Shown: positions 6,371 to 28,640, counted from the first letter of the stretch. The stretch is DNA of 62,805 bases from Verrucomicrobiia bacterium (GCA_020439925.1 JAGRPC010000023.1:1-62805), one strand, 5' to 3'. Numbers and translations are program-made. The notes: generated by a model not told the origin, from the sequence alone.

Positions 6371-6371
6371 G

Positions 6372-8836: not shown

Positions 8837-9508
8837 ATGAACTCACCTCTCCAAGAACGGCACCGGGACCAGATTTTCGGCGGCACGACCTACGCCCAGC
8901 ACGGAGAAGACCTGATGCTCTGCAATCTCTTCCGATTGATGGGCGTCGATCGGCCGGGATACCTCGACCTTGGCGCCCACCATCCCTACGTGATCTCCAA
9001 CACCGCCCTACTCTATGAGCGGGGCTCACGTGGCGTGAATGTTGAAGCCAATCCGCTTCTCGTCGAGGCTTTCCGTGAGGCAAGGGCTGACGATTTGACG
9101 ATCAACGTCGGAGTAGGTCCCAAGCAGGGCACTTTGCCGTTCTATCGGTTCACGAAGCGGAGCGGCCTCAATACTTTTTCGGAAGCCATTGTAGCGGCAA
9201 GGGCCGACCGCCATCCTGTCGAGGAGGTGGTCCACCTCCCGGTCTGGACAATTACCAAGATCGTCGACGAATGTTGCGGCGGCGTCTACCCGCCACTGCT
9301 GTCGATGGATCTGGAGGGCCTTGACTTGGCGGTCTTGAAAACGGCGGACTTCTCAGCTTCGCGGCCGCGGGTTGTGATCGCGGAACTCCAAGGAGCCGAT
9401 GCGGCGGAAGCTCGACTATTGATGGCCGAACAGGGCTTCCGTGTTCTGTGCCGGATGGTCTCGAACCTCCTGTTCGTCCACGAGGATTGGATTGGAAAAG
9501 TCGCCTGA
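8837..9508 (+). CDS. FkbM-family SAM-dependent methyltransferase
   Basis: YAQHGED, YLDLGAHHP..SNT, GVNVEAN, LSMDLEGLD motifs. Confidence 0.9.
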   Translation: MNSPLQERHRDQIFGGTTYAQHGEDLMLCNLFRLMGVDRPGYLDLGAHHPYVISNTALLYERGSRGVNVEANPLLVEAFREARADDLTINVGVGPKQGTLPFYRFTKRSGLNTFSEAIVAARADRHPVEEVVHLPVWTITKIVDECCGGVYPPLLSMDLEGLDLAVLKTADFSASRPRVVIAELQGADAAEARLLMAEQGFRVLCRMVSNLLFVHEDWIGKVA

Positions 9509-9613
9509 ACCGCCGTTAACCATGCGTTTTAGCAGGAGAGTCTAGCGCGAGAGCGCGGAATTTCTGAGGTCGCCGTCGAGGAACAGACCTCTGAGGGGCG
9601 AGGTGCCTTGTAA

Positions 9614-9949
9614 TTATAAAATCGGAATCGACCAATATTGGTTTACAATTTCTTTCGAAGTTCTAATTGAGTCGTTATTCAATCGATCGGAATCAACAAA
9701 CAAATATATTTCGAGGGTCCTGAACTGAGACGTTAGACATGAATTTACTCGATTCTTTAAAAGTCTTTCATCTTTCGTGGCTAGGTTACGAACGCCTTCC
9801 AGCTTAATTGCGACTTCAGAGACCAATGCGGCTTGCTCAATGAGTGCATTCTGAACTGGATGCAACCACCTTAGGAACACAAATACGGCCAAAAGCAATG
9901 AAATCTGACCGATTACCAACCCTTTATAAAAATCCAAAGTCACTTTCAT
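9614..9949 (-). CDS. Putative immunity protein for Rhs module 1 (N-terminal TM)
   Basis: AT-rich small ORF immediately downstream of the toxin CT. Confidence 0.65.
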   Translation of the reverse strand: MKVTLDFYKGLVIGQISLLLAVFVFLRWLHPVQNALIEQAALVSEVAIKLEGVRNLATKDERLLKNRVNSCLTSQFRTLEIYLFVDSDRLNNDSIRTSKEIVNQYWSIPIL

Positions 9950-9955
9950 TATCTA

Positions 9956-11746
9956 CTAACTGTCGCACGGTGATCCACCGGACCATTCTCCCTCTGCAGG
10001 CGCCTTCGGTCCAAGTTTTCTCATTATTTCACCCAATCTTCCGGCTAAGCTTTCCGATGGAGCGAAAGGTTTAGTCATTTTTACGGCATCACCTATCTTG
10101 TCTCCCAATAAATCCGCAAAACCCGTAGGAAGCGGTAGATCAGTTCCTACACTAGGAATTGCCCAATTTTCATCTTCGGTTGGAACTTCGTATTCATATT
10201 CATATTGCCTCTGTCCTGATCTATAACAAATCTTTCCATCGCAAATGCATTTAATTTCCGTCGTTGTCGTCCATTTGAATATGACTTTTTCAATTGCAAT
10301 AATTTGAGTTCCTCTTTGAGGTTTACCTCCTTGCGAGACTGGATCAATTTCCAGCTCCCATTTACCATCACTAGTTTTCCAAAACGGCGGCCCATCTTCT
10401 TCGCAGGTCAATCCGAGGTAGTCAAGATCGTTTACTCCGCCATTCCCTCCGTATCTATACAAATTGAGCCCTCCCCGCTCCCCTATCGGATCCCGATTGA
10501 TCCATCTTCCCAGCATTGGAACGTAGAAACGGTAGCCGTAGTTATACCAACCGGTCTCCCCGTCCCGGAACTGTCCTTGGAACCCGAAGTCCCAGGCGTA
10601 GCCGGAGGTGGGGCGCGGCGAAAAGTCCGACGCCATGATCCGGCGGACGCCGAAGGCCGAGTAGGCGTAGCGCTCCAGAACAGTCCCGGAGGTGTTCAAC
10701 ACCGAGATCCCGTTGAAGTAGTCCATCGTCGCGTAGAGACGCTCATCGAGCGTGCCGTTGCCATCGGTGTCACGGTCACGGAGGACCAGCTCATCCCGGT
10801 GGCCGGGACGTTCACCCCACAGGTAGGAGCGGGCGGCGGAAGTTGCGGAGCCGACCCGCTCTTCCATGGGCTTCCAGCGGTCGCCCCAGTAGGTGTGGGT
10901 GGTTACTTCGTCGACGGTTCTCGTAATGCGGCGGCTAAGGCCGTCATATGAATACTCTCCGACAAGATGAATCCAATCGTCTCCTTCTGTTTCAACACGA
11001 ACGATTCGATTCCAGGCGTCCCAAATCACGTTGAGGAAAGGTTCACCGTTCACACTCTCGCCCGGAGGAAGTTTCGTCGCATTGCCGGCTCGGTCATAGG
11101 AGAGCAGGGCGCTGCTCCCGTCGATCTGGGTGAGCTGGTTGTCCTGGTTGTTCGAACGGCTCTGATCGAGCACAACTGAACCGTTCGCGTTTTTGCGATA
11201 ACCCAGCCAGTTGCCGGTGGGATCGTATTCAAAATCCTCCGTCTCCCCCGGAACACCCCCGACGGTGGTGCGGTTGGTGTTCAAGGTTCCCACCGCGTCC
11301 CGGATGACCTGATACAGGCCGTCGTAGCCGTAGGACTCGTCCTGGCCGCTTGCTGCCACGAGGTTCTTCTTCCAGGTCCGATTGGAGGCTTCGTTGTAGC
11401 CCCATTGCCAGGCATCGATGGGCGTGCCGGTGGAACTGTTCTGCCAGCGCATCTCCTGCACCCGCCCGAAGTGGTCATAGCCGTCGTAGGGATCGCCAGA
11501 GTCACCTTCGCTGCCTCCGCCGGGACGGATCATGGACATTTCGACTCCGGGTTGGGGGTAAGCGACCTTCACGAAGCGGCCCAGCCCTGCTCTCGAATAC
11601 TCGACCTTGTTGCCGCCCTCCCCAGAGATCGCGGCTGACTTCACCAGCCCGAAGAGGTCGTCGATGCTGTCGCTCGAGCCGTAGCCGAGGTTCACCACCC
11701 GGCCGTTGGGGTATGTCATCGAGGTTCGACGTGCCGTGTTGCTCAT
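9956..11746 (-). CDS. Rhs C-terminal module 1 (YD repeats + RHS core + Cys-containing CT)
   Basis: Starts MSNTARR; RWINRDPIG...LDYLGL autoproteolysis signature; unique AT-rich CT. Confidence 0.9.
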   Translation of the reverse strand: MSNTARRTSMTYPNGRVVNLGYGSSDSIDDLFGLVKSAAISGEGGNKVEYSRAGLGRFVKVAYPQPGVEMSMIRPGGGSEGDSGDPYDGYDHFGRVQEMRWQNSSTGTPIDAWQWGYNEASNRTWKKNLVAASGQDESYGYDGLYQVIRDAVGTLNTNRTTVGGVPGETEDFEYDPTGNWLGYRKNANGSVVLDQSRSNNQDNQLTQIDGSSALLSYDRAGNATKLPPGESVNGEPFLNVIWDAWNRIVRVETEGDDWIHLVGEYSYDGLSRRITRTVDEVTTHTYWGDRWKPMEERVGSATSAARSYLWGERPGHRDELVLRDRDTDGNGTLDERLYATMDYFNGISVLNTSGTVLERYAYSAFGVRRIMASDFSPRPTSGYAWDFGFQGQFRDGETGWYNYGYRFYVPMLGRWINRDPIGERGGLNLYRYGGNGGVNDLDYLGLTCEEDGPPFWKTSDGKWELEIDPVSQGGKPQRGTQIIAIEKVIFKWTTTTEIKCICDGKICYRSGQRQYEYEYEVPTEDENWAIPSVGTDLPLPTGFADLLGDKIGDAVKMTKPFAPSESLAGRLGEIMRKLGPKAPAEGEWSGGSPCDS

Positions 11747-11855: not shown

Positions 11856-12344
11856 CTACCATGTGAACGGCTCCCTCAAACTTCGTAGAAACCTTTCTTG
11901 GTACTCATTCTCATTCATTCTCATTTCGATGATCATGTCTCCTTCAACGACACTCACTTGATACGAAATAAGGTTTATTCCATTTAATAGTGCCTCAAGT
12001 TTATCACCAAACTCATCGTCGAATAAAACTTTTTCACCTGTTTTTGGGGCCGTCGCAGAAACTTTAGTTGTGCCTGGTTCATTCAAAAGATCCATAACAA
12101 CATAATCTTCTATCTTGAAATTCACTTCGCCGTTCAGCTTTTTTTCAAGTGATTCGAGCACATCTGACAGGGTCATTCGGGGAATCGCTTCCGACATCAA
12201 CCGGCGTCGAGACTTCTCGAGATTTGAAACCGATCTGAATGTGTAAAGAATATGAAATTCACACAAAAGCCAAACTGCAATGAAAATAGAAATGAGGATT
12301 GATGAAGTCCATGCAAATAAATTTCTTGCCGCCGATTTAATCAT
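11856..12344 (-). CDS. Putative immunity protein for Rhs module 2 (N-terminal TM)
   Basis: ATGA overlap with toxin stop; AT-rich. Confidence 0.7.
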   Translation of the reverse strand: MIKSAARNLFAWTSSILISIFIAVWLLCEFHILYTFRSVSNLEKSRRRLMSEAIPRMTLSDVLESLEKKLNGEVNFKIEDYVVMDLLNEPGTTKVSATAPKTGEKVLFDDEFGDKLEALLNGINLISYQVSVVEGDMIIEMRMNENEYQERFLRSLREPFTW

Positions 12345-14152
12345 TTCCCCAAGCAATCATCGTTCGCTTTGTCTTGTGCCTCTTTGATTGCTTTCGCGAG
12401 TGCTCGGCTGAGAGAAGCCCATCCGTCTTCAAGATTAAGCCGTGGACTCTGGATATTTTGCGTTTTCGTTGGTCCAGGACGTCCGCATTCGCAGCATTGA
12501 TATTCTTGTTTTCCGCTCCAATGTACAAACTTGAATCCACCTGGACCGGAGTATGCGTCGGCTGCCTCCTTCAATTTGTCAACTATCACATCGCCAGCGG
12601 CTTTACCAGTTCCCGAGGCACTTCCTGCGGCGTTGGAACCGGCTCCGGAGAGGAAATCTACAACACTCCCTCCAGCGGCGGGACCGAAGTTTCCGAGCGC
12701 CTCCATTAGTTCAGTCATAAGTTCAGCGATTTCCTTGTCGTTTTTTCCGACCGCGCTTTCTCCTTCTGGTAGCAACGCAATATCAGATTGACCTCCCATC
12801 AAGATTGACTCTCCGTTGCTGCAAAGACCTAGGTAGTCCAAACGATTTATCGGTTTATTGTATGTGAATCGATACAGATTGAACCCACCTAGTTCTTTGA
12901 TTGGATCCCTGTTGATCCACCTCCCCACCAGAGGAACAAATACCCGATAGCCGTAGTTATACCATCCGTTCGCCTCATCCCGGATCTGACCTTGGAACCC
13001 GAAGTCCCAGTCGATGTCCGAGGTGGTCCTCGGCGTGTAGTTTGGTGCCATGACCCGACGTACCCCGAACGCACTGTAGGCGTAGCGCTCCTGCACCACT
13101 CCGGACGTGTTCAGCACCGCCGTCCCGTTGAAGTAGTCCATTGTCGCGAAGAGTCGCTCGTCGAGGCTCCCGTCGCCATTGGTGTCCCGGTCCCGCAGGA
13201 CCAGCTCGTCGCGGTGGCCGGGGCGCTCGCCCCAGAGGTAGGAGCGGGAAGCGGCGGTCGCGGAAGCCACCCGCTCTTCCAAGGGCTTCCAACGGTCGCT
13301 CCAATAGGTGTGGGTCACCGTCCCTCCGGACTCCTTCGTGATCCGGCGAGTCAAGCCATCGTAGGCGTTCTTCTGCACGCTGGTCCCGTTTTCGTCCTTC
13401 ACCTCGACGAGCCGGTTCCACGCGTCCCAGGTGTTCGCGAAATGCTTCGTCCAGTCGCCTCCGGTTCCTGGACGAGTCTTCGTCGCGTTCCCGGCTCGGT
13501 CGTATTCGACGCCTTGGCTCGATCCGTCGATCTGCGTCAACTGGTTGTCCTGATTGTTTGAGCGGGTCCGGTCCAGGACGGGTGCGCCGTTCTCGTCCTT
13601 GCGGTAGCCCAGCCAGTTCCCGGTGGGGTCGTAGGTAAAATCCTCCTCCTCACTGGGCACTCCGCCGATGGCGGTGCGGTTGGTGTTCAAGGTTCCCACG
13701 GCGTCACGGACGACCTGATAGAGGCCGTCGTAGCCGTAGGCTTCGTCTTGCCCGGAGGAAGCAACGAGGTTCTTCTTCCACGTCCGATTGGAAGCCTCGT
13801 TGAAGCCCCATTGCCAGGCATCGATGGGGGTGCCCGTGAAACTGCTCTGCCAGCGCATCTCCTGCACCCGCCCGAAGCGGTCGTAACCGTCGTAGGGGTC
13901 GCCCGAATCACCCTCCAATCCCCCTCCGGGGCGGATCATGCTCATCTCCACAGCAGGCTGCGGGTAGGCGATCTTGACGAATCGGCCCAGGCCCGCACGG
14001 GTATATTCCACCTTGTTGCCACTCTCGCCGGAGATCGCCGCGCTCTTCACGAGGCTGAAGAGATCGTCAATCGATCCCGTCGAGCCATAGTCCAGGTTCA
14101 CCACCCGGCCATTCGGGTAGGTCAGCGATGTGCGCCGGGACGTGTTGCTCAT
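12341..14152 (-). CDS. Rhs C-terminal module 2 (Gly/Ala-rich helical CT)
   Basis: Starts MSNTSRR; RDPIKE...LDYLGL; unique CT. Confidence 0.9.
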   Translation of the reverse strand: MSNTSRRTSLTYPNGRVVNLDYGSTGSIDDLFSLVKSAAISGESGNKVEYTRAGLGRFVKIAYPQPAVEMSMIRPGGGLEGDSGDPYDGYDRFGRVQEMRWQSSFTGTPIDAWQWGFNEASNRTWKKNLVASSGQDEAYGYDGLYQVVRDAVGTLNTNRTAIGGVPSEEEDFTYDPTGNWLGYRKDENGAPVLDRTRSNNQDNQLTQIDGSSQGVEYDRAGNATKTRPGTGGDWTKHFANTWDAWNRLVEVKDENGTSVQKNAYDGLTRRITKESGGTVTHTYWSDRWKPLEERVASATAASRSYLWGERPGHRDELVLRDRDTNGDGSLDERLFATMDYFNGTAVLNTSGVVQERYAYSAFGVRRVMAPNYTPRTTSDIDWDFGFQGQIRDEANGWYNYGYRVFVPLVGRWINRDPIKELGGFNLYRFTYNKPINRLDYLGLCSNGESILMGGQSDIALLPEGESAVGKNDKEIAELMTELMEALGNFGPAAGGSVVDFLSGAGSNAAGSASGTGKAAGDVIVDKLKEAADAYSGPGGFKFVHWSGKQEYQCCECGRPGPTKTQNIQSPRLNLEDGWASLSRALAKAIKEAQDKANDDCLGK

Positions 14153-14240: not shown

Positions 14241-14621
14241 TCATCGATTTCTGTTCTCGCTAATTATTTCAATCGCCTCAATTAAACTAATATCGTCAGT
14301 CAGCTTAGACCTGGCTTGCGACTGAACCCAATCAAATCTGAAGTCGAATTCGTAGTTAGAAATTGCTCGAAGCTCGTTTCCAAGGAGATCATTCGGACGC
14401 AAAAATCCAATTTTTGTCGATGCTTGATTAGATACCTCTTTCAAGAGGCCGATTAGCCAAGATTTTTGGTATCTCCCCATTGGATCAAAGAGTTTTATGA
14501 TTTCGTCATCAGTCAAACATGCTCGATGGCCTAGAATTCGCTTCCTAGAACGTCGGAGATTTACTTGCAACCATACCCCAAACATGGCTAAAGCTACGAA
14601 AATCACCAAGACGAAAATCAT
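14241..14621 (-). CDS. Putative immunity protein for Rhs module 3 (N-terminal TM)
   Basis: MIFVLVIFVALAMFGVWL TM helix then basic stretch; directly downstream of CT. Confidence 0.7.
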   Translation of the reverse strand: MIFVLVIFVALAMFGVWLQVNLRRSRKRILGHRACLTDDEIIKLFDPMGRYQKSWLIGLLKEVSNQASTKIGFLRPNDLLGNELRAISNYEFDFRFDWVQSQARSKLTDDISLIEAIEIISENRNR

Positions 14622-14629
14622 GACTGCCG

Positions 14630-16465
14630 TCAGAATAATGTTGGATCAAAGACGCAAATATGAGCACAGGATATCGCCAAGCCCTCCAGGTATCCAGCGG
14701 ATCCTGCTGCAAGAGCCGCGCCAAGGGGCGCAGCGGCGCGACCAAACAAACGCATCCCCCTGCCTCCGCCAAATGACATCATACTTGGAATAGTGGTCCA
14801 AATAGGGCCAGAAATTCCCCCCTTAGAAACTCCTTTGCCAAATAATGGCTTAACAGGGAGTGGTGCGACAAGAAGCGAAACACCTAGTGCCCCCATAGCA
14901 ATATCAGCTCTGTGATAAGCCATGCAGTTTATAAAACACTCCGAAAATGGAGAGTGCCCACCTCCGCCGCCACCTCCAAGTGGCTTGCCACCACCTCTAC
15001 CACCACCGGGCTTGCCACCACCGCCGCAATTCATACTCAACTTAGCATTTCGGCAATCCGCAAGACATTCCTCCCTGTCTCCGGGCTGAGGAAAGCATCC
15101 TTGGCATTGATCGTCGCATGGAACGCATGTCCAAAGTCCGAAGCGGTCGAACTTGTTGGTGGAATCATTATACGAGAAAGTATAAAGACCAACAATGCTC
15201 CCGTCTTCTCCAATCGGATCTCTGTTGATCCACCTGCCGAGAAGCGGGACGTAGAACCTATAGCCGTAGTTGCTCCACCCCGTCTCATTATCGCGGAACT
15301 GCCCCTGGAATCCGAAGTCCCAAGCATGGCTGGAGGTGCTTCGCGGAGTGAAGTCCGCCGCCATGATCCAACGGACGCCGAAGGCCGAGTAGGCGTAGCG
15401 TTCCAGGATCGTTCCCGAGGTGTTCAAGATGGCCGTCCCGTTGAAGTAGTCCATCGTCACGTAGAGACGCTCGTCGAGACTCCCGTTGCCGTCGGTGTCC
15501 CGGTCGCGGAGGATCAGCTCGTCCCGGTGCCCGGGACGCTCACCCCACAGGTAGGAGCGGGCAGCGGTGGTTGCGGAGCCAATCCGCTCCTCCAAGGGCT
15601 TCCAACGGTCACTCCAGTAGGTGTGGGTCACCACACTGGAAGCCTCTTTCGTGATCCGGCGAGAGAGGCCATCATAGGCGTTCTTCTGCACGCTCGCCCC
15701 AGTCTCATCCTTGACCTCCACGAGCCGGTTCCACGCGTCCCATACCGGCTGGTAGCTTTTGCTCCAGTCTCCGTTCGTTCCAGGCGCGGTCTTCGTCGCA
15801 TTGCCGGCTCGGTCATAGGAGAGCAGGATGCTGCTCCCGTCGATCTCGGTGAGCTGGTTGTCCTGGTTGTTGGAACGGGTTTGATTGATGATCATCGAAC
15901 CATTCGCGTCCCGGCGATATCCCAGCCAGTTGCCGGTGGGATCGTAGGCGAAGTCCTCTTCTTCTCCCGGAACACCCCCAATGGCGGTGCGGTTGGTGTT
16001 CAAGGTTCCCACCGCGTCCCGGATGACCTGATACAGGCCGTCGTAGCCGTAGGACTCGTCCTGGCCGCTTGCTGCCACGAGGTTCTTCTTCCACGTCCGA
16101 TTGGATGCTTCGTTGTAGCCCCATTGCCACGCATCGATGGGCGTGCCGGTGGAACTGCTCTGCCAGCGCATCTCCTGTACCCGCCCGAAGCGGTCGTAAC
16201 CGTCGTAGGGATCGCCGGAGTCGCCCTCCGATTCACCCCCGGGGGGGATCATGCTCATCTCCACGCCGGGCTGGGGATAGGAGATTTTCACGAACCGGCC
16301 CAGGCCGACCCGGGTGTAATCCACCTTGTTTCCGCTCTCCCCGGAGATGGCGGCGGACTTCACCAGGCTGAAAAGGTCGTCGATGCTGTCGCTCGACCCG
16401 TAGCCCAAGTTCACCACACGCCCGTTGGGGTAGGTCACTGAAGTGCGACGGGAAGTGTTGCTCAT
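14630..16465 (-). CDS. Rhs C-terminal module 3 (Cys-rich + hydrophobic, possible membrane-active CT)
   Basis: Starts MSNTSRR; RDPIGE...FDRFGL; CT has Gly linker and hydrophobic small-residue helices. Confidence 0.9.
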   Translation of the reverse strand: MSNTSRRTSVTYPNGRVVNLGYGSSDSIDDLFSLVKSAAISGESGNKVDYTRVGLGRFVKISYPQPGVEMSMIPPGGESEGDSGDPYDGYDRFGRVQEMRWQSSSTGTPIDAWQWGYNEASNRTWKKNLVAASGQDESYGYDGLYQVIRDAVGTLNTNRTAIGGVPGEEEDFAYDPTGNWLGYRRDANGSMIINQTRSNNQDNQLTEIDGSSILLSYDRAGNATKTAPGTNGDWSKSYQPVWDAWNRLVEVKDETGASVQKNAYDGLSRRITKEASSVVTHTYWSDRWKPLEERIGSATTAARSYLWGERPGHRDELILRDRDTDGNGSLDERLYVTMDYFNGTAILNTSGTILERYAYSAFGVRWIMAADFTPRSTSSHAWDFGFQGQFRDNETGWSNYGYRFYVPLLGRWINRDPIGEDGSIVGLYTFSYNDSTNKFDRFGLWTCVPCDDQCQGCFPQPGDREECLADCRNAKLSMNCGGGGKPGGGRGGGKPLGGGGGGGHSPFSECFINCMAYHRADIAMGALGVSLLVAPLPVKPLFGKGVSKGGISGPIWTTIPSMMSFGGGRGMRLFGRAAAPLGAALAAGSAGYLEGLAISCAHICVFDPTLF

Positions 16466-19896: not shown

Positions 19897-21614
19897 CCAG
19901 GAATCTTTAAAGGATTGGGATAGTAATTTGGATCGTCTGGATCAGGTTCACCCTGTCTCCCTGGCGGAACCTCAGTACCAACTGGAGTGCCGTTATGACA
20001 CGGAACACTATACGAGATGCCGCTCGGTCTGCACACTACGCGACAGAGTCCGCCTCCCGGCCCATCACCGAAAACTTTTTCAACCGTGCATTTTTCCTTT
20101 TCCGTTTGAGACTGCGCTCGAGTTCGCGATTCTGTCCTAGAACGAGTCTCCTCTCCAATAGGGCAACAAACGCCGCCGCGCAGCACATATCTTCGCCAAG
20201 TGTCAATTATTAGCCAAATGCTTATGACTCCAAGAGTAATAATTAAGTATTGCTCAATCTTTATTAGAATTAGAGGATTGCAAAAAAGACCGAAACGATC
20301 TAGCTCATTACTTGGATTGTTTTTCCCGAAACTGTAGAGATTTATCCCATCACGCTCCTCAATAATATCCCGATTGATCCACCTGCCGAGGAGCGGAACG
20401 TAGAAGCGGTATCCGTAGTTGGACCACCCGGTCTCGGAGTCGCGGAACTGGCCCTGGTAGCCGAAGTCCCAGGCGTAGTTCGAAGTGCTCCTCGGAGTGA
20501 AGTCCGCCGCCATGATGCGGCGGACGCCGAAGGCGCTGTAGGCGTAGCGCTCCTGCACGACTCCGGAGGTGTTCAGCACCGCAGTGCCGTTGAAGTAGTC
20601 CATCGTCGCGTAGAGACGCTCGTCGAGCGTCCCGTTGCCGTCGGTGTCCCGGTCCCGCAGGACCAGCTCGTCACGATGGCCGGGGCGCTCCCCCCACAGG
20701 TAGGAACGGGAAGCGGTGGTCGCGGAGCCGATTCGCTCCTCCAAAGGCTTCCACCGGTCGCTCCAGTAAGTATGGGTCACCACACTGGCGGATTCCTTGG
20801 TAAGGCGACGGCTCAGGCCGTCGTAGGCATTCTTCTGCACGGTGGTCCCGTTCTCGTCCTTCACCTCGACGAGCCGGTTCCACGCGTCCCACACGGGCTG
20901 GTAGCTCTTGCTCCAGTCGCCGTTCGTTCCGGGGGCAGTCTTCGTCGCATTGCCGGCACGGTCGTAGGAGAGCAGGGCGCTGCTCCCGTCGATCTGGGTG
21001 AGCTGGTTGTCCTGGTTGTTCGAACGGCTCTGATCGAGGACAGCTGAACCGTTCGCGTCCTTACGATAGCCCAGCCAGTTACCGGTGGGATCGTAGGTGA
21101 AGTCCTCTTCTTCTCCCGGAACACCCCCGACGGCGGTGCGGTTCGTATTCAAAGTGCCCACCGCGTCCAGGATGACCTGATAGAGCCCGTCGTAGCCGTA
21201 AGCTTCATCTTGTCCACTGGCGGCAACGAGGTTCTTCTTCCACGTCCGGTTGGACGCTTCGTTGTAGCCCCACTGCCAAGCATCGATGGGGGTTCCGGCG
21301 GAACTGTTCTGCCAGCGCATCTCCTGCACCCGGCTGAAGCGGTCGTATCCGTCGTAAGGATCGCCCGAGTCGCCCATGCTGCCTCCCCCGGGGCGGGTCA
21401 TGCTCATCTCCACAGCGGGCTGCGGGTAGGCGATCTTGATGTATCGGCCCAAGCCTGCCCGGGTGTATTCCACCTTGTTGCCACTCTCGCCGGAGATCGC
21501 CGCGCTCTTCACGAGGCTGAAGAGATCGTCAATCCATCCCGTCGAGCCATAGTCCAGGTTCACCACCCGGCCATTCGGGTAGGTCAGCGATGTGCGCCGG
21601 GACGTGTTGCTCAT
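19887..21614 (-). CDS. Rhs C-terminal module 5 (proximal; CT with TM helix and Cys cluster)
   Basis: ATG overlaps the TGA of the large Rhs ORF (ATGA); RDIIEE...LDRFGL. Confidence 0.9.
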   Translation of the reverse strand: MSNTSRRTSLTYPNGRVVNLDYGSTGWIDDLFSLVKSAAISGESGNKVEYTRAGLGRYIKIAYPQPAVEMSMTRPGGGSMGDSGDPYDGYDRFSRVQEMRWQNSSAGTPIDAWQWGYNEASNRTWKKNLVAASGQDEAYGYDGLYQVILDAVGTLNTNRTAVGGVPGEEEDFTYDPTGNWLGYRKDANGSAVLDQSRSNNQDNQLTQIDGSSALLSYDRAGNATKTAPGTNGDWSKSYQPVWDAWNRLVEVKDENGTTVQKNAYDGLSRRLTKESASVVTHTYWSDRWKPLEERIGSATTASRSYLWGERPGHRDELVLRDRDTDGNGTLDERLYATMDYFNGTAVLNTSGVVQERYAYSAFGVRRIMAADFTPRSTSNYAWDFGYQGQFRDSETGWSNYGYRFYVPLLGRWINRDIIEERDGINLYSFGKNNPSNELDRFGLFCNPLILIKIEQYLIITLGVISIWLIIDTWRRYVLRGGVCCPIGEETRSRTESRTRAQSQTEKEKCTVEKVFGDGPGGGLCRVVCRPSGISYSVPCHNGTPVGTEVPPGRQGEPDPDDPNYYPNPLKIPGWE

Positions 21615-24600
21615 GGGGTGGCATAGGCGTAGCTCACTTCAGGTGTCGTTCCCGGGACCACCGCCCCGCTGTGTGATTGACGGTCCTTGGTCATTTGTCC
21701 CAAGCCGTCGTAGGCATAAGAGACCTCGTTGAGAATGCTGCCAGAGCCAGGGCTCGCATGGCTGTAACTGCTCACTTTGGAAGTGAGGGCTCGCTTGGTC
21801 TCGTAGGTGATGGAAATGCGTTTGACGGTCTGGTCGATGCCGGTCCCAAAGGCGATGATCCGGTCGTGGAGGAGCCGCCCCAGCTTGTCACGGTCGTAGG
21901 CGTGAACGGTCTCGTTGGGATCTTTCGTTGTGACGACTTCCCCTTGGCGGTTGTAGGTATGTTCGGTCCGCTCGTAGATCCCATCCGGGCCGTTGCCGAG
22001 CGGGGCGTTGCTGTCGTCGCTCTCGGGGTAGATCTTCGCCCGCAGAAGATGACCGGTGGCCACGGCGGAATCGGCCAAGGTCGTCCCGTAGACCCAGCGC
22101 GTCACCTGGTCGCCGGTCACGTCGTTGACGAGGGTAAGCGTTTCCAGTCCGCCGCCCGGGTGATAGCAGAAGCGAGTGGTGCGGTTCACGTCGGCCGCCG
22201 GCCCCGCGCCTTCCTTGAAGTTTTCGACGGTTTCGATTTCACGCCCGAGCGCATCGCGCTTCCAACGGGTCTCGGTGCCCATCGGGTCGATCATCGCCCC
22301 TGGCTCCCCGGTGCTGGCATGCCGGGTGATCGTGACGAGGACTTCCTCACTCGTCGAGGGTGGAACCTCGGGGCGTACGAGAACGGATCCTCCATTCGTG
22401 CCGTAATCGGCGGAGGCGATCTCCCGGCCGATGGCGTCCTGCCACCAACACGCATAGGTGCGCCTTGCCCGGGGCTGGGATCCGGTAGGGCCGTTGAGCG
22501 GCCCGGTTCCGGTGGCATCGTGGAAACGCTGCCAGGAGGCGCTTTGAATCGCTTGGCCGGCCGCGTTGTAGACGGTCTCACTTTGCTCGACCACCGTGTC
22601 GGCGGAAGGATCGTTGTTATTGCTGCCACCCGATGGGTTGCAGGCCGTGTAGCGGCGGAGGGGACGGTCGAAGGCGTCGTAGGTGCCCTTCACAAATCCT
22701 TCGTTGCCTTGGAAAGTTTCTTTCAAGACAATGCCCGACGGATCCCGCCACCGCTGCGCGACCAAGGCATTGCCCACCGCACCGGTCGTGGGATCGACCG
22801 AATAGGTCTCGTTCTTGTAATCGCGACCGCGGGCGTCGAAGTAGACCTTGCTACGAGCGGTGAGATTGGCGGAGGCAACGGCGGTGTGATAGGAATCGAC
22901 CTGGGTGGCCTGACCGAGATTGTCGAGGGTGTAGCGAACCAGGAAGGTATTGGTCCCGTCGCTGCGGGTTTCTCCGATGAGTCGGTCGCGGAAGTCGTAT
23001 TCGAAAGATTCCGAACGGTCATTGGCACTGCTGGAATCCACCGGCCGGACCACCGATGTAAGATTGCTATTGCCTCCGTCCGTTCCACCGTCGTAGACGT
23101 TGGTGGTGACCAGAACCATGTTGTTGCCGCCCGCCCCGCCTCCGGTGGGGTCAGTGTTGGTGGCGCCGGTGTCATTGGTGCCGATCCAAACGGAAGCGAC
23201 GAGGCCGCGGGCGTCGATGACGCTGCGGTTGATGGTTCCTCCGGGAGAGGCGACCCGGTTTTCCCGGCCCATCGCGTCGCGGCCATAACGGGTCGCGTAA
23301 TAGTTGGTGTTCTCGAATCCTTCGCCGGTCACGGGAATGACATGCCAGACACGGCTCTCATCCCGGTAATCGGCGGCGTTGTAGAACTCACGCCGCCAGC
23401 GCTTCCAGGTTGCTTGCGGGAATACCTCGGACGGCGAGATAGGACCGCATTCGCAAGCACGGGATGCTTCGATGGATTGGAGTTCGCGATTGGAAAAATC
23501 AAGACGACGAAGCTTCACCGTCCCGAGGGTGTAGAAGCCACCCGAAGTGGACCCGCCCTTGGCGCTGCGGATTTCGCGGACTCCGTCCAGATAACACGAA
23601 TAATCAGCCCGCCTTGTCAGAACGGGCTCGACCGCCCCCGACTCCTTCTTGGTCGGGACGAGATGTGCAGGCCCTAGAACCAAGGTGGCCCGCCCCAGCA
23701 GATCCGACTGGCAGTCGGTGCGCCGGCTCGAACCGAATCCGCTCGCCGTGGTCCACCCGGCTGGGACTCCTTCCAAGAGCGAGGTGTCCGCGTCGTCAAT
23801 CCGAAACCGAAGGGCTCCGGTGAGCCGGTCATGAACGGCGTAGTCGATCCGGCCGCGCTCGTTCTTGCGCCACTGGGCATTGCCGTAGTCATCGAAGACG
23901 GTGACCCGCGAGGTCGTGGCCCCGGTGCCGTTCTCTCCGGTGCCGACAACGGGAGGAGTGACGGTATGTTGGAGCACGGCAAAAGTCGCACCGCGCCAAG
24001 TGTAGGTGTTGGAAGTCGTGGCGGGATTGCTGCCTCCACCCGCCGTGTCCAGGTAGACTTTTGAATCGGCGGTCTTGTAGATCGTATCCGTCCCGACCGT
24101 CCGGGCGACATAGGTGACCTCCCGCTGCTTGATGGCCGTGCCCGAAGAGCCTTCCTTGACATTGGTCAACTTGAGATAACCCGGAGCCGAACCCGCTCCA
24201 CCGCCGCTCGTGGGGTAATAATCTTTGGTCTCGATGAGCCCGGCGCTGGCCTTCAAGGTAACAGTGAAATTCTGCGATGCAGTCGAGGGTTCGGTGAATG
24301 ACGCGATGGCCGAGGAGGTGGCGTGGAGGGTCTCTCGAAACTCGGAATTGTATTCCCAGTATTCCGGCCACTCGTCGGTTCCCTTTTTGAGGATTTTCAA
24401 CACCGGCTGATTGGTATTGTTGTAGTAGGTCGTCACGGTGACGCTGTCCGGCTGAGTCTCGATCGAACGCCGCCACCAGTTTCGGCCAGAGGCATTATCG
24501 CTACTGAGGAGGGAGAAGGTGAAGGTTTGGGTGCCGCCATGGCGGACAGATCGAGTCACCCGATTCTCAGCATCGTATTCGAAGTAGTCAGAAGCGTATC

Positions 24601-25438
24601 CGGCCAGCGTCGCATCGCTGACGGATGTCAGATTCAAAGGATCAAGTCCCATCTCCTGCATCCTCGCCCACCCGTCCGAGTCGAGCACGTAACGTAGACC
24701 GTGTTTGAACCCGATGGAGCTGGCCGTCTTGTAATAGCGATAATAAGCCCGTGCGCTGGTCGCCCAACTCGCTGAACTCTCTTCCCAAACCTCGGCAACC
24801 GTGCTCTGAAGATCATTGAGGCTTCCGGCGCTGGTGGAGCCGTCATAGTAGGAGAAGCGCCACTGCTTCAAGGGGAGCTCGACGCCCCCACGGACGAGAC
24901 GCTTTTCGACATTCAGGATCAAGCCCTGGTGAACACCGCTGGTCGCGTAGGTGTAGAGCAGGGCGGCGCTCTCTCCTGAAACCGGGTCGATGCGAGTCAG
25001 AGACTCCATCCGTTGCGAGATATTGTAGGCAGCGACGGTGATGATTCCATCACTCGCGGTTTCCGTTTTGAGCCTGCCCTTTAGAGCCGTGACCGCGTTC
25101 GGACCATAAAACGTCCAGACTTCTCCACGTGGGCTGGCAACCCGGTAGTCACCGTTTCCAAGAATCGTCAGAACCCTTAGCGTTCCCGATTGCCCCCAGT
25201 AGGCTCCTGACTGCCAAAGCCAGGAAGTCGCCTGCCCTTGCACCATTGTCACCTCTTGAGGTTTGCCATCCACGGTGATGTTGCTGAACCAAAGGTAGGG
25301 CAATGAGCGCACGACCCAGCTATTTCCGTTGATCCCGCCTTCATTGCTCGTCATCCGCGAGACATATCGAAGGTTGTGATCGAAACCGGTTGACAGCCCC
25401 CGGCCTTGGGTATCAGGACGACTTGTCTGGAGTTGCAT
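21611..25438 (-). CDS. Rhs/YD-repeat N-terminal shell protein lacking core and toxin
   Basis: 1275 aa with YD repeats (YDAENRV, RDAMGR, YDFRDRL, YDGLGQ); DUF6531-like start; ends VSYAYATP-stop. Confidence 0.9.
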   Translation of the reverse strand: MQLQTSRPDTQGRGLSTGFDHNLRYVSRMTSNEGGINGNSWVVRSLPYLWFSNITVDGKPQEVTMVQGQATSWLWQSGAYWGQSGTLRVLTILGNGDYRVASPRGEVWTFYGPNAVTALKGRLKTETASDGIITVAAYNISQRMESLTRIDPVSGESAALLYTYATSGVHQGLILNVEKRLVRGGVELPLKQWRFSYYDGSTSAGSLNDLQSTVAEVWEESSASWATSARAYYRYYKTASSIGFKHGLRYVLDSDGWARMQEMGLDPLNLTSVSDATLAGYASDYFEYDAENRVTRSVRHGGTQTFTFSLLSSDNASGRNWWRRSIETQPDSVTVTTYYNNTNQPVLKILKKGTDEWPEYWEYNSEFRETLHATSSAIASFTEPSTASQNFTVTLKASAGLIETKDYYPTSGGGAGSAPGYLKLTNVKEGSSGTAIKQREVTYVARTVGTDTIYKTADSKVYLDTAGGGSNPATTSNTYTWRGATFAVLQHTVTPPVVGTGENGTGATTSRVTVFDDYGNAQWRKNERGRIDYAVHDRLTGALRFRIDDADTSLLEGVPAGWTTASGFGSSRRTDCQSDLLGRATLVLGPAHLVPTKKESGAVEPVLTRRADYSCYLDGVREIRSAKGGSTSGGFYTLGTVKLRRLDFSNRELQSIEASRACECGPISPSEVFPQATWKRWRREFYNAADYRDESRVWHVIPVTGEGFENTNYYATRYGRDAMGRENRVASPGGTINRSVIDARGLVASVWIGTNDTGATNTDPTGGGAGGNNMVLVTTNVYDGGTDGGNSNLTSVVRPVDSSSANDRSESFEYDFRDRLIGETRSDGTNTFLVRYTLDNLGQATQVDSYHTAVASANLTARSKVYFDARGRDYKNETYSVDPTTGAVGNALVAQRWRDPSGIVLKETFQGNEGFVKGTYDAFDRPLRRYTACNPSGGSNNNDPSADTVVEQSETVYNAAGQAIQSASWQRFHDATGTGPLNGPTGSQPRARRTYACWWQDAIGREIASADYGTNGGSVLVRPEVPPSTSEEVLVTITRHASTGEPGAMIDPMGTETRWKRDALGREIETVENFKEGAGPAADVNRTTRFCYHPGGGLETLTLVNDVTGDQVTRWVYGTTLADSAVATGHLLRAKIYPESDDSNAPLGNGPDGIYERTEHTYNRQGEVVTTKDPNETVHAYDRDKLGRLLHDRIIAFGTGIDQTVKRISITYETKRALTSKVSSYSHASPGSGSILNEVSYAYDGLGQMTKDRQSHSGAVVPGTTPEVSYAYATP

Positions 25439-25504: not shown

Positions 25505-25684
25505 TCACGGAGAATTGACCCCTGGACTTCCCGAGCAATCCACTCCGCTGTCGCCCGTGTCATCGCAACCTCCAGACTCATCACAATCACATCCGTTGTC
25601 TCCCCCGGAATCCGGAGGGCATTTAGGATCCTTCGGCTTTTCAGGTCCTCCTCCTGGAGGGGGGCCACTTGATGAACTTGGCAT
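25505..25684 (-). CDS. 59-aa Ser/Gly/Asp/Cys-rich peptide (possible detached Rhs N-terminus)
   Basis: MPSSSSGPPPGGGPEKPKDPKCPPDSGGDNGCDCDESGGCDD...; followed by TGA TAA TGA. Confidence 0.45.
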   Translation of the reverse strand: MPSSSSGPPPGGGPEKPKDPKCPPDSGGDNGCDCDESGGCDDTGDSGVDCSGSPGVNSP

Positions 25685-25925
25685 GGCGGTTGCGTGGGTT
25701 GAGGACAAAGTTTCTTCAGGCCGATGCAAGAAGATCAAGAATCCCATCAAACGGCAAGAAAGATTCTCAGAATCGCGCAACGATTTTGTCGCATTCGGCA
25801 CTTTCTGCTCACCGTCGCGTTCCGAAGCATGGGGGCGAGGACCTTTCGACCCGTTGACTCCGCAACTGATTTGACTTGCCACGGGGAGCGACTCCTCGCA
25901 ATAGAAAGGAAGCCTTCGTTGACTT

Positions 25926-26930
25926 GTGATGAGAAAACTCGTCCTTCAAAACCAGCAATGTCCCGGCGACATTGTCATGCTAACCGGAGCCCTGCGGGAT
26001 CTACACCGCTGCCACCCGGGGGAGTTCATCACCGATGTGCGAACCCCCTTTCCCGATCTCTGGCTCCATCATCCCGGTGTCACCCGGCTCCATGACGACA
26101 CCCCGGATGCCGAGTGGATTGACGCTGCCTATCCGCTCGTCATGGAGAGCAATCGCTTTCCCGGCCACTTTCTTCACGGCTTTTGCAGCCACCTCAATTC
26201 AATCCTGGGAACGCAGATTCGACCAACCGAATGCCGGGGAGAGATCGTCCTCTCTCAGGAAGAGCGTCAACGCCCTCCCGTGGTTTCGGAGATCCTCGGT
26301 CACGACATCCCCTATTGGGTGCTTGTCGCGGGAGGAAAGTACGACCTTACGGTCAAGTGGTGGCCGCAGACTCGATTCCAGGAAGTGGTCGATCATTTCA
26401 CCGGGCGCCTCCTCTTCGTTCAAACAGGAGGGGCTGAGGACTTTCATCCGTCAGTCCGTGGTGTCCTCAATCTGGTGGGTCAAACAACCCTGCGCCAACT
26501 CGTTCACCTGATCCACCATTCTTCCGGCGTGCTGTGCCCGGTCACTGCTGCAATGCACTTCGCGGCAGCGGTACCCACCCGATACGACCGACATCCGCTT
26601 CGCCCTTGTGTTGTCGTCGCGGGAGGGCGGGAACCTCCGCATTGGGAAGCTTATCCCGGACACCAATTCATCCACACGGTCGGCATGCTTCCTTGCTGCG
26701 GAGCAGGTGGGTGCTGGAAGGCGAGGACTTCGCCTACCGGAGACGGCTCCCCTTTTGACCATCCCCACTACCTTTGCGAGCGTTCCGTTGAAGGTAAGCT
26801 ACCTCGCTGCATGGAGATGATCTCCTCTACCGACGTGATTCGGAGGATCGAAGGATTCATCGACGGTGGAGCAAGTCGCTATCTCGACCAAGAAGAATGG
26901 AGTCGCGTACAAATCGCATTCAACAATTAG
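25926..26930 (+). CDS. Glycosyltransferase family 9 (heptosyltransferase-like) with Cys cluster
   Basis: PGDIVML, KWWP, NLVGQTTLRQL, TAAMHFAAA motifs; C-terminal CC...CW...FDH...C...CM. Confidence 0.85.
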   Translation: MMRKLVLQNQQCPGDIVMLTGALRDLHRCHPGEFITDVRTPFPDLWLHHPGVTRLHDDTPDAEWIDAAYPLVMESNRFPGHFLHGFCSHLNSILGTQIRPTECRGEIVLSQEERQRPPVVSEILGHDIPYWVLVAGGKYDLTVKWWPQTRFQEVVDHFTGRLLFVQTGGAEDFHPSVRGVLNLVGQTTLRQLVHLIHHSSGVLCPVTAAMHFAAAVPTRYDRHPLRPCVVVAGGREPPHWEAYPGHQFIHTVGMLPCCGAGGCWKARTSPTGDGSPFDHPHYLCERSVEGKLPRCMEMISSTDVIRRIEGFIDGGASRYLDQEEWSRVQIAFNN

Positions 26931-26975
26931 CATTCGAACAAAGGCATTCGCAAATCTCAACGATAAGTCGCAATA

Positions 26976-28640
26976 ATGAGCAAACTGACCTCGCGGAAAA
27001 CCATCGATCAAAGTCTTCCCAAACTATTTATCGGCCCTTGGGTGGGTGAATTCGGAATCGAACTTCTTCACTGGCAGGGTGTTGCACGATCGGTCGCAAA
27101 TAGCAGGGAATGGGGAGATGTAATCGCATCATCGTGGCCAGACCGAGAATATATCTATTCAGACTTTGTCGATGATTTCGTTCCATACACACCTCCCACT
27201 CACCACGTTTGCGGAGCAAGCTGCCGAGGCTATGACGAGAATTCATTACCATGGAAAGAGAGATTCTGCTCCGAACGCGGCGATGTCTGGCTAACCCCGT
27301 TCGGAAAGCCAAAGAATTACCTAACCGTCAGGGCCTTGGCAGCTTCACACTCAACATTCATTGATTTCTCCGAACGCGCTACCATCACTGATGGCAAGTT
27401 CGATCTTCTTATCCATGCCCGCGCCACGCAAAAGCACAATCAAAATCACAAAAATTGGCCGGTCGCCAATTGGGAGCGCCTTGTCTCCTCTCTTCCAGGA
27501 GATTGGAAAGTCGCCAGCATTGGAGATCCGAATGGTGCCCATAAGATTCTTGGCACAACCGATCTGAGAGGCATTTCACTTCAATCTCTTGCGTCACACT
27601 GCAAGAAGGCCAAAATGCTCGTTGGACCCTCCAGCGGTCCGATACATTTCGCAATCCATTCCAGGCTACCTGTGGTAATCTGGATGGGCGAGCATAGGCA
27701 CCACTATTTTCCTCAATGGAACCCTTTTGATGTACCGATTGCCTGCCTTGACACGTGGCAGCCTTCGGTTGATTCCGTTCTAAATAAAATTCGAGATATT
27801 CATTTCATAACAAAGTCCCAACGGTCAGATCTACGCTATCTCGTCGCCGCAACCAAACGCTCCGGCCACCACGCCGTCACCGAGTGGTTGGCCAATCTGA
27901 ATCCGGGCACAGAGTTCGTCTGGCTCAATGACTGCGTCTCCGACCACGTCCGGACTTACCCGAATTATCCTAATACTATCCCAAGTCGCTCCCTCTTACC
28001 AAAGAATTTGAACGATCCGAGGATATTTGACACGGTTATCTCGATAGGAACAGCGAAAGATACCCTCTCTCGAATAATCTCAATCGAGGGAGCATCCGTG
28101 AAGGAGATATCATTACTTCCAGAAGCTGAATCTGCTCAATATATTGTTTTTGTACTCAGGGATGCGGCAAATCTCGCGTCCAGCCTGCAAAAAGGGTTCC
28201 CGATTGATTTTGGGAAATTCGGATATTTGGGATCTCCCATCCAGAAAATGCTAGCCACGTATCGAGAATACCTCTGCGAAGCTACTGGTCGCACGGCAAT
28301 ACTTGAACGCTTTGGTTCGAAAGTTGTGTTTGTAAGCTATAATCGCTGGCACACTGATCCAACTTATCGAAGCGAGATCTCGAATAGACTGGGAACATCT
28401 CTCGTTGACACCGAGAGGGGAACCGTTGCGAGATACGGACCCCTGAGCGGATTTGAGGCCCCAGAAACAAGCGCCGATCAGCTTAAAACGCTTTCAAGAT
28501 GGGAATCCGGGTCCGATGCTCCGGATTTTTGGACCGCCTGTCGTGATTCACATTTACATCAGATGGAGCTTGAATTCCACGAAAAGAATTTGCCAATTCC
28601 TCACCTTGATAATGCTTTCAATAGGCTAGGGTTCCTTTAG
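26976..28640 (+). CDS. GT9-like glycosyltransferase fused to a sulfotransferase-like domain
   Basis: N-half KNWP, DLRG, GPSSGPIHFA; C-half KRSGHHAV (5'-PSB-like) and VLRDAANLASS (3'-PB-like). Confidence 0.65.
   Translation: MSKLTSRKTIDQSLPKLFIGPWVGEFGIELLHWQGVARSVANSREWGDVIASSWPDREYIYSDFVDDFVPYTPPTHHVCGASCRGYDENSLPWKERFCSERGDVWLTPFGKPKNYLTVRALAASHSTFIDFSERATITDGKFDLLIHARATQKHNQNHKNWPVANWERLVSSLPGDWKVASIGDPNGAHKILGTTDLRGISLQSLASHCKKAKMLVGPSSGPIHFAIHSRLPVVIWMGEHRHHYFPQWNPFDVPIACLDTWQPSVDSVLNKIRDIHFITKSQRSDLRYLVAATKRSGHHAVTEWLANLNPGTEFVWLNDCVSDHVRTYPNYPNTIPSRSLLPKNLNDPRIFDTVISIGTAKDTLSRIISIEGASVKEISLLPEAESAQYIVFVLRDAANLASSLQKGFPIDFGKFGYLGSPIQKMLATYREYLCEATGRTAILERFGSKVVFVSYNRWHTDPTYRSEISNRLGTSLVDTERGTVARYGPLSGFEAPETSADQLKTLSRWESGSDAPDFWTACRDSHLHQMELEFHEKNLPIPHLDNAFNRLGFL

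What the first reader, a model, noticed from the sequence alone, without database searches (positions are those of the whole stretch)
8837..28640. Rhs locus bracketed by glycan-modifying enzymes, including a possible protein heptosyltransferase
Seen: a GT9 gene and a GT9-sulfotransferase fusion are divergent from the Rhs 5' end, and an FkbM methyltransferase is convergent on its 3' end. The GT9 C-terminus (CC...CW...FDH...C...CM..IS) recalls, from memory, the four-Cys iron-binding motif of TibC/AAH autotransporter heptosyltransferases. The Rhs shell and upstream peptide are Ser/Thr-rich. Inference: the enzymes either glycosylate the Rhs proteins or remodel the surface receptor as kin-recognition or self-protection for the toxins.
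Basis: partly seen in the sequence, partly recalled or inferred. Interest (0 to 1): 0.75.

Follow-up and report, generated by a model that had tools for sequence, protein, structure and literature searches.

The report
Sugar-coated, split Rhs toxin system
In this group of bacteria, Rhs toxin genes almost always sit beside sugar-adding enzymes and usually begin with a serine-rich (or threonine/proline-rich) leader, so the enzymes likely sugar-coat that leader; here the toxin gene is also split into a separate leader, one shell half and five toxin-bearing halves that are predicted to be interchangeable.

Summary
The layout is real, and the link is family-wide. Of 26 full-length loci of this Rhs family with both flanks, 23 have a glycosyltransferase within 5.5 kb, against 1 of 20 control windows. 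Of 46 such Rhs proteins, 28 carry poly-Ser. GT9a is not a TibC-family member (no TIGR04414 match, no N-terminal barrel), but its four invariant Cys align with TibC-type iron-finger Cys. A four-Cys tail also occurs in the host's WaaF-like gene. GT9a homologues sit beside Ser-rich tracts in 30 of 80 loci versus 6 of 220 controls, including double-Gly precursor peptides. Thr/Pro leaders pair with GT60 instead (3 of 3). Best reading: GT9a O-glycosylates Ser in the Rhs leader, here a separate 59-aa gene; GT9b and FkbM extend or decorate the glycan. No glycan has been measured. Earlier unreviewed scan notes found poly-Ser-plus-glycosyltransferase pairs on other DNA (lipopeptides, phages); none that I retrieved involves Rhs.

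The parts
25926..26930 (+). GT9a: single GT-B glycosyltransferase of an unnamed GT9 clade, with four invariant C-terminal Cys; predicted peptide/protein Ser-O-glycosyltransferase
   Evidence: PF01075; AF2 pLDDT 95.7; Z 23.7 3TOV, 20.9 WaaF, 19.9 TibC, 19.6 WaaC; invariant columns; context
26976..28640 (+). GT9b: GT9-fold domain fused to a sulfotransferase-fold domain; predicted glycan extension plus sulfation
   Evidence: 25 of 40 aligned members match PF01075 at E<=0.05; model pLDDT 91.5 matches 3TOV/TibC/WaaC and 1T8T/6XL8; 47 homologues
25505..25684 (-). 59-aa leader ORF (Ser run, Pro/Gly, five Cys); corresponds to the low-complexity N-terminus of single-chain relatives; candidate glycosylation substrate
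   Evidence: 12 synonymous vs 6 non-synonymous codon changes against L081, with the Ser run and all Cys kept
21611..25438 (-). Rhs N-half, 1275 aa of YD-repeat shell, ending in a stop that overlaps the next ATG
   Evidence: PF05593, TIGR01643; split conserved in L081, L082/L084, L141, L142
19887..21614 (-). Rhs C-half 0: about 443 aa of shell and core plus a 132-aa variable tip
   Evidence: TIGR03696
19534..19896 (-). small ORF behind tip 0; immunity protein inferred from position
   Evidence: no Pfam or NCBIfam hit
18959..19456 (-). 165-aa ORF with a hydrophobic N-terminus, function unknown; present twice in L081
17138..18910 (-). Rhs C-half 1 with its own ATG; 147-aa Cys-rich tip
16631..17080 (-). 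ORF behind tip 1; immunity inferred from position
14630..16465 (-). Rhs C-half 2 with its own ATG; 167-aa tip
14241..14621 (-). ORF behind tip 2; the same tip and ORF pair follows the shell half directly in L081; immunity inferred
12341..14152 (-). Rhs C-half 3 with its own ATG; 160-aa tip
11856..12344 (-). ORF behind tip 3; immunity inferred from position
9956..11746 (-). Rhs C-half 4 with its own ATG; 150-aa tip
9614..9949 (-). ORF behind tip 4; immunity inferred from position
8837..9508 (+). FkbM-family methyltransferase; predicted glycan O-methylation; membership of the module less certain
   Evidence: PF05050 E 1e-12; none of 17 matches in 16 related genomes lies on an Rhs-bearing contig; other FkbM genes flank Rhs in L067, L125, L141

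Best explanation
This is a polymorphic Rhs toxin locus that likely carries its own O-glycosylation kit: GT9a is predicted to put the first sugar on serines of the Rhs leader, and GT9b and the FkbM enzyme are predicted to extend, sulfate and methylate that glycan. Shown: the genes, the GT9 and sulfotransferase folds, the family-wide adjacency of glycosyltransferases to this Rhs family, the Ser-rich or Thr/Pro-rich leaders, the association of the GT9a clade with Ser-rich tracts, and the three-part split. Inferred: that the leader is the acceptor; that the donor is ADP-heptose (by GT9 family only); that the glycan is made in the cytoplasm before export; that the separate leader and any one of the five C-halves assemble on the single N-half, as C subunits do on the B subunit of Tc toxins. 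The role of the glycan (solubility or protease shielding, tethering, export or target recognition) is open; a strain-variable mucin-like handle on the toxin capsule is my guess.
For: (1) 23 of 26 full-length Rhs loci with both flanks >=2.5 kb (22 genomes) have a glycosyltransferase within 5.5 kb, versus 1 of 20 arbitrary 11-kb windows from 20 Rhs-carrying genomes. Only 3 Rhs pairs among the 26 exceed 60% identity. (2) GT9a is the commonest partner (11 of 26) in divergent, tandem and convergent arrangements. Rhs-linked GT9a proteins need 9 changes on a quick tree, at least 3 of them forced by well-supported branches. (3) 28 of 46 full-length Rhs ORFs carry poly-Ser, 5 a short Ser run and 3 a separate Ser/Thr/Pro ORF. 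(4) Ser-rich tracts lie within 5 kb in 30 of 80 GT9a loci versus 1 of 20 and 5 of 200 control windows. In 8 loci with a sensor kinase, 7 of them also with a C39 peptidase exporter, a 42-70-aa ORF with a Lys-rich double-Gly leader and a Ser/Pro core lies directly upstream of GT9a. (5) The three Thr/Pro-rich leaders (L141, L112, L082/G001) go with a GT60-type enzyme, PF11397; GT9a was not found in G001 or G057. (6) GT9a aligns weakly with a true TIGR04414 protein at the catalytic Asp position and the four Cys. TibC modifies Ser, not Thr (PMC4358343, passages). (7) The host has separate WaaC-like and WaaF-like genes and an HldE-like kinase, so GT9a is not needed for core LPS. (8) Copies of the same mobile element's coupling protein that lack a nearby Rhs also lack a nearby GT9a match.
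Against: No glycan, activity or expression was measured. In this window the leader has only one 4-Ser run (10 Ser in 59 aa) and is a separate ORF. GT9a also lies beside Ser-poor leaders (L020, L103, L123). 50 of 80 GT9a loci show no tract by my filter; a looser +-700-bp test gave only 20 of 80 versus 15/216, 10/72 and 13/258. 9 of 46 Rhs ORFs show no such leader, and several of these still have glycosyltransferases (L115-L117, L119, L132). Many partners (GT2, GT8, GT25, GT32, LicD, pyruvyl transferase) are also typical of surface-polysaccharide loci (established knowledge). GT9a has a WaaF-type His where the TibC-type protein has Trp, and the profile match is weak (E 0.029, probability 1.7%). 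The control windows are not matched for mobile DNA. No export route was found: no signal peptide was evident, and no TssF in G000 (93% complete). The tips have no family match, so toxicity is inferred.
Confidence: 0.65

Rival explanations
1. The enzymes remodel a surface glycan (LPS or capsule) that serves as the toxin's receptor or as a kin label, protecting or identifying carriers of the locus.
For: GT9 structures closest to GT9a include LPS enzymes (3TOV Z 23.7, WaaF Z 20.9). Partner genes vary by strain and include polysaccharide-type enzymes. Some Rhs loci have glycosyltransferases but no Ser-rich leader.
Against: It does not explain poly-Ser leaders, the GT60 pairing with Thr/Pro leaders, or GT9a directly behind double-Gly Ser/Pro precursors. 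Each tip already has a downstream ORF in the immunity position. No waa, flippase or polymerase gene was seen among the 76 neighbour representatives scanned, of 225 clusters.
Confidence: 0.17
2. Rhs and glycan genes are unrelated cargo that accumulate in the same hot spots of mobile elements.
For: The window is an integrative element (integrases, TrwC, coupling protein, RepA, ParA, restriction and ABC-3C genes). The same element carries Rhs in G142:C7 and G148:C7. Transposases are common around the loci. This FkbM's closest relatives are not Rhs-linked.
Against: The nearest glycosyltransferase is usually within 0.1-2.5 kb of the Rhs. The partner families differ between loci while adjacency is kept. 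Element copies without a nearby Rhs show no nearby GT9a. Enzyme type follows leader type.
Confidence: 0.08
3. The family glycosylates its leader, but in this lineage the leader has been cut off and shortened, so GT9a now acts on the free peptide, on Ser/Thr of the shell, or on nothing.
For: The leader is a separate ORF with several in-frame stops before the shell half and only four consecutive Ser. The shell half has Ser+Thr 0.195.
Against: The leader shows a synonymous excess against L081 (12 vs 6). Separate leaders persist in L081, L082, L103, L123 and L141. GT9a and GT9b are intact.
Confidence: 0.1

Closest known systems
Bacterial autotransporter heptosyltransferases (BAHT: TibC/AAH; TIGR04414; PDB 4RAP, 4RB4; PMC4358343, passages read)
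   Same: GT9/GT-B fold, Gly-Asp at the catalytic-base position, four Cys at equivalent C-terminal positions; dedicated enzyme encoded next to an exported protein; Ser acceptor (predicted here).
   Different: No TIGR04414 match; no N-terminal beta-barrel (334 aa, aligns to TibC only from residue 95); His instead of the Trp seen in the TibC-type protein; partner is an Rhs leader or small peptide, not an autotransporter passenger.
Serine-rich repeat protein glycosylation islands of Gram-positive bacteria (GtfA/GtfB, accessory Sec; PMC7661464, passages read)
   Same: A Ser-rich region encoded on an island with a strain-variable set of accessory glycosyltransferases.
   Different: Gram-negative host; the cargo is a polymorphic toxin capsule, not an LPxTG adhesin; the initiating enzyme is GT9 or GT60, not GtfA/B; no secA2/secY2/asp genes were seen in the window or scanned flanks.
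LPS core heptosyltransferases WaaC/WaaF (TIGR02193, TIGR02195)
   Same: Fold (Z 19.6-20.9), His in the C-lobe motif; some WaaF proteins share a four-Cys tail, including the host's own.
   Different: Scores 14.8 and 17.5 bits against cut-offs 185 and 135; mobile and patchy (27 of 150 relatives); not in a waa context; the host has its own copies.
Tc toxin BC shell (YenB with YenC1/C2/C3; PMC11067744, title, abstract and outline seen)
   Same: An RHS/YD shell built from two polypeptides, with alternative toxin-bearing C subunits from separate genes.
   Different: Here the split is derived from a single-chain Rhs at a different position (C-half about 443 aa); no A component was seen; assembly is untested; targets are presumably bacteria.
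Rhs polymorphic toxins with orphan tip/immunity cassettes (PMC3482391, passages read)
   Same: Rhs core (TIGR03696), variable tips, downstream small ORFs, cassette array.
   Different: Cassettes are complete C-half genes with their own starts rather than fragments awaiting recombination; low-complexity leader; flanking glycan enzymes; no PAAR/VgrG hit in the window and no TssF in G000.
Glycocins (PMC12457901, search listing and start of abstract only)
   Same: For the exporter loci of the GT9a clade: a double-Gly precursor, C39 exporter and dedicated glycosyltransferase.
   Different: Glycocin enzymes are GT2 and their cores are disulfide-bonded (recalled); here the enzyme is GT9 and the core is Cys-free Ser/Pro.

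Membership tests
BAHT (TibC/AAH) | Match to TIGR04414 above cut-off | tested here: not met
   no hit at E<=0.05 for GT9a; no match in G000; the same model finds a 500-bit member elsewhere
BAHT (TibC/AAH) | N-terminal beta-barrel (TibC residues 1-97) | tested here: not met
   model residue 1 aligns to TibC residue 95; GT9a starts with the Rossmann strand
BAHT (TibC/AAH) | Four Cys of the iron finger | tested here: met
   C257, C263, C284, C295 invariant and aligned to the four Cys of a TIGR04414 member; not diagnostic, since the host WaaF-like protein has a four-Cys tail
BAHT (TibC/AAH) | Catalytic Asp and sugar-binding Lys, Arg, Trp, Thr | tested here: inconclusive
   D15 and K144 sit at the expected motif positions, H211 aligns to Trp; the alignment is weak (E 0.029) and numbering to TibC is by inference
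BAHT (TibC/AAH) | Iron binding, beta-hairpin thumb, dodecamer, ADP-heptose transfer to Ser | not testable with these tools
   needs protein work; thumb not examined
WaaC/WaaF LPS heptosyltransferases | Equivalog score above cut-off | tested here: not met
   17.5 vs 134.6 and 14.8 vs 185.3 bits
GT9 family (PF01075) | Pfam match and GT-B fold like solved GT9 proteins | tested here: met
   GT9a 30.3 bits over cut-off 22, Z 19-24; GT9b below cut-off but fold matches
SRRP glycosylation island | GtfA/GtfB, accessory Sec genes, LPxTG anchor | tested here: not met
   no such Pfam hits among 53 window proteins or the scanned flanks; whole genome not searched for secA2
SRRP glycosylation island | Ser-rich region beside several glycosyltransferases | tested here: met
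   family level; short in this window
Rhs polymorphic toxin | YD repeats, Rhs core, variable tips with downstream small ORFs | tested here: met
   TIGR01643, TIGR03696 in all five C-halves; tips
Rhs polymorphic toxin | Tip toxicity and cognate immunity | not testable with these tools
   no family match for tips or small ORFs
T6SS-delivered Rhs | PAAR/VgrG linkage and a T6SS in the genome | tested here: not met
   no PAAR/VgrG hit in the window; TssF not found in G000, 93% complete
Tc toxin BC shell | Two-chain shell assembled from separate genes | tested here: inconclusive
   two-gene architecture shown; assembly not tested; no Tc-specific family hits

The most novel reading that the evidence does not exclude
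Verrucomicrobiales make glycoprotein toxin capsules. A mobile kit writes a strain-specific glycan on the Rhs leader: GT9a on Ser leaders, GT60 on Thr/Pro leaders, with variable extension, sulfation and methylation. The glycan acts as the export, tethering or target-recognition handle of a T6SS-independent weapon. In this lineage one shell half loads any of five toxin halves at once, without DNA recombination. The same GT9 clade is a general serine-tract glycosyltransferase that also matures an undescribed class of double-Gly glycopeptides and decorates contractile injection systems.
Probability: 0.35. Interest if true: 0.9.

Novelty: new variant of a known kind. Interest (0 to 1): 0.76.

Why it matters
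I found no description of Rhs toxins with dedicated glycosylation (paper searches; open-access library only). If true, it adds a glycan layer of polymorphism to bacterial conflict systems and offers a lead on how Rhs proteins without a T6SS or signal peptide reach targets. It also defines a small single-domain GT9 clade acting on short Ser-rich peptides, testable within weeks in E. coli, where a heptose would show as +192 Da. The split architecture would make 'orphan' cassettes directly expressible subunits, a Tc-like solution reached independently.

Tried and rejected
PDB sequence searches with GT9a and its profile found nothing significant (best WaaF, E 0.29). My first Rhs-core regular expression was faulty and gave zero hits; it was replaced by tblastn (8 of 80) and a core HMM (9 of 80). 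The complex prediction of GT9a with the leader gave no answer (score 0.02, controls not run) and is not used either way. A phylum-wide Rhs search found only 4 other genomes in 400, so the analysis rests on the order. Sequencing error as the cause of the split was rejected: other genomes have different junction sequences at the same site, and contigs of 4 runs show no indels, although no listed contig bridges the junction by 31 bases on both sides. A programmed frameshift was rejected as a general explanation because the offsets differ (overlap, 18 and 19 bases). The Atlas search for an unknown Rhs-adjacent family (L120:14818-16704) gave no named family. TibC membership, WaaC/WaaF orthology and T6SS delivery were rejected as in Membership tests. 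Fisher tests were computed but overstate significance because genomes are related. Supplementary files of papers were not consulted; a neighbourhood table in the supplements of PMC3482391 could bear on novelty.
Full report
Setting. The window is the whole contig G000:C37. It looks like an integrative mobile element: tyrosine integrases, a TrwC relaxase, a coupling protein, RepA, ParA, ArdC, restriction genes and an ABC-3C system. Relatives with named records are mostly Verrucomicrobiota. Runs holding most of the region are wastewater and activated-sludge metagenomes.

Observation. GT9a (25926-26930), GT9b (26976-28640) and FkbM (8837-9508) bracket the Rhs array as described. GT9b's model has a GT9 fold followed by a sulfotransferase fold, so the fusion claim holds at fold level.

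The Rhs is split. On the minus strand lie a 59-aa ORF (25684-25505), a 1275-aa shell half (25438-21611) and a C-half whose ATG overlaps that stop. Four more C-halves follow, each beginning with Met at the same position, with about 443 conserved residues and a distinct 132-167-aa tip, and each followed by a small ORF. The same split occurs in L081, L082/L084, L141 and L142, with three different junction sequences; all other junctions listed (about 60 rows, some duplicates) are in frame. In L081 and L082 the downstream cassettes start at their own ATG with no upstream shell homology; one L141 cassette keeps a short upstream remnant. Four of the five C-half starts have CCC before ATG, the commonest context among 317 genome genes. 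So this is a two-gene shell, and the cassettes are probably expressible. The analogy is the BC shell of Tc toxins, where one B subunit packages several C subunits (PMC11067744, title and abstract). Assembly is inferred.

What GT9a is. It has 3415 homologues. The AF2 model (pLDDT 95.7) is a GT9 fold: Z 23.7 to 3TOV, 20.9 to WaaF, 19.9 to TibC and 19.6 to WaaC. TibC aligns only from residue 95, so the barrel that defines BAHT enzymes (PMC4358343, passages) is absent, and TIGR04414 does not match. Four Cys are invariant and line up with those of a true TIGR04414 protein, as does the Gly-Asp motif, though the match is weak (22% over 259 columns, E 0.029). The host's WaaF-like gene also ends in four Cys, so the motif alone proves nothing.

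Linkage. Among 150 relatives, 34 have this Rhs and 27 have GT9a; 15 have both, and 8 genomes (9 loci) have them adjacent. I fetched 59 Rhs regions from the Rhs searches, called genes, and scanned 260 of 313 neighbour cluster representatives with Pfam; unscanned ones can only lower the counts. Of 26 full-length loci with both flanks of at least 2.5 kb (22 genomes), 23 have a glycosyltransferase within 5.5 kb at E<=1e-6 or a GT9a homologue, and 24 have some glycan gene. Over all 49 full-length loci, including short contigs and three loci, the figure is 36. One of 20 arbitrary 11-kb windows had one (all 153 proteins scanned). Partners include GT9a (11 of 26), GT2, 4, 8, 11, 14, 25, 29, 31, 32, 34, 60, 71, 77, 90 and 92, plus sulfo-, methyl- and pyruvyl-transferases. 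On a quick tree the 23 Rhs-linked GT9a proteins among 94 need 9 changes, at least 3 forced: several origins or several losses.

The likely substrate. Of 46 full-length Rhs ORFs, 28 carry poly-Ser, 5 a short Ser run, 3 a separate Ser/Thr/Pro ORF, 9 none, and 1 lacks its 5' end. The window's 59-aa ORF is the detached form of this leader and shows 12 synonymous against 6 non-synonymous changes versus L081. Seen from the enzyme's side, only 9 of 80 GT9a loci hold an Rhs core. The others hold Ser/Thr kinases (19 loci), C39 exporter/HlyD/sensor kinase sets, contractile-injection genes (at least 7), cell-wall hydrolases or Ig-domain proteins (76 representatives scanned of 225 clusters; no waa genes among them). 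What they share is serine: tracts within 5 kb in 30 of 80 loci versus 6 of 220 control windows. A looser local test was weaker (20 of 80 versus 5-14%). In 8 loci a small ORF with a double-Gly leader and a Ser/Pro core lies right before GT9a. The three Thr/Pro leaders go with a GT60-type enzyme instead. GT60 enzymes of protists start O-glycans on proteins (established knowledge).

Mechanism. GT9a probably primes Ser residues of the leader, perhaps with heptose; the host has an HldE-like kinase just under the family cut-off (338.5 vs 345 bits). GT9b would add a second sugar and sulfate, and FkbM a methyl group. L103 repeats this architecture with a single-chain shell: divergent GT9a and GT9b, and a second GT9b-like gene beyond the 3' end. 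The export route is unknown (no TssF).

Against. Nothing was measured. The leader here is short in Ser; GT9a sometimes sits by Ser-poor leaders; some Rhs with glycosyltransferases have no tract; many partner enzymes could act on polysaccharide; this FkbM's nearest relatives are not Rhs-linked; the controls are not matched for mobile DNA.

Prior knowledge. The closest known systems are BAHT enzymes and SRRP glycosylation islands (PMC7661464, passages). It works like them but is a member of neither. Seven searches found no paper on glycosylated Rhs. PMC3482391 mentions glycosyltransferases only as toxin domains (all 4 passages in the held text read). Earlier unreviewed scan notes report GT9 with poly-Ser lipopeptides, phage poly-Ser proteins with glycosyltransferases, and a Pro-Thr peptide with GT60; none of those retrieved involves Rhs, and they are not counted as support.

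Verdict. A real, family-wide coupling of Rhs toxins to glycan enzymes, best read as leader O-glycosylation (0.65), plus a native split of the shell. New variant of a known kind; interest 0.76.

Noticed in passing
L005, L006, L007, L010, L011, L016, L032, L053 (30-200 bp upstream of the GT9a match): Candidate undescribed RiPP class: 42-70-aa precursors with a Lys-rich double-Gly leader and a Ser/Pro core, flanked by a C39 exporter, HlyD and a sensor histidine kinase; possibly glycopeptide signals.
   Followed up: partly
L023, L037, L051, L055, L039, L060, L063, L056, L072: GT9a homologues in contractile-injection-type loci whose sheath, DUF6519 or neighbouring proteins carry poly-Ser inserts.
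   Followed up: partly
L001, L014, L017, L043, L046, L002, L021: Small Ser/Pro-repeat or poly-Ser ORFs directly upstream of GT9a, several in ECF-sigma / Ser-Thr kinase-WD40 operons.
   Followed up: partly
L108, L109, L111, L129, L137 and others: Rhs proteins of 2000-2500 aa in which a segment homologous to residues ~450-970 of the shell half comes before the segment homologous to residues ~10-480: a rearranged or partly duplicated shell, often with internal poly-Ser.
   Followed up: no
L120:14818-16704, with relatives in L111, L129, L130, L159: Unnamed 630-740-aa family next to Rhs in five loci; mostly no Pfam hit (the L129 member has a methyltransferase-24 domain); Atlas look-alikes unnamed.
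   Followed up: partly
L082:246-1325; L109 and L147 Rhs N-termini: Leaders that include a LamG/concanavalin-like domain between low-complexity tracts (PF13385 for L082; the other two by eye), a possible targeting module.
   Followed up: partly
window 104-8000 and 28699-62805: Integrative mobile element with TrwC relaxase, coupling protein, RepA, ParA, ArdC, type I/III restriction genes, ABC-3C system and Fic protein; its coupling protein occurs in 12 of 150 relatives.
   Followed up: partly
window 19887-21614: The first C-half has Asp-Ile where the other four have Asp-Pro in the first motif of the Rhs core end.
   Followed up: no
L159:12850-14265: Two similar tubulin-like proteins (recognised from recall, not scanned) lie beside an Rhs cassette.
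   Followed up: no
L138:15805-19725 and L103:192-3281: The genes beyond the Rhs 3' end resemble the window's 5832-7792 and 28699-29784 genes, suggesting a shared element boundary.
   Followed up: no
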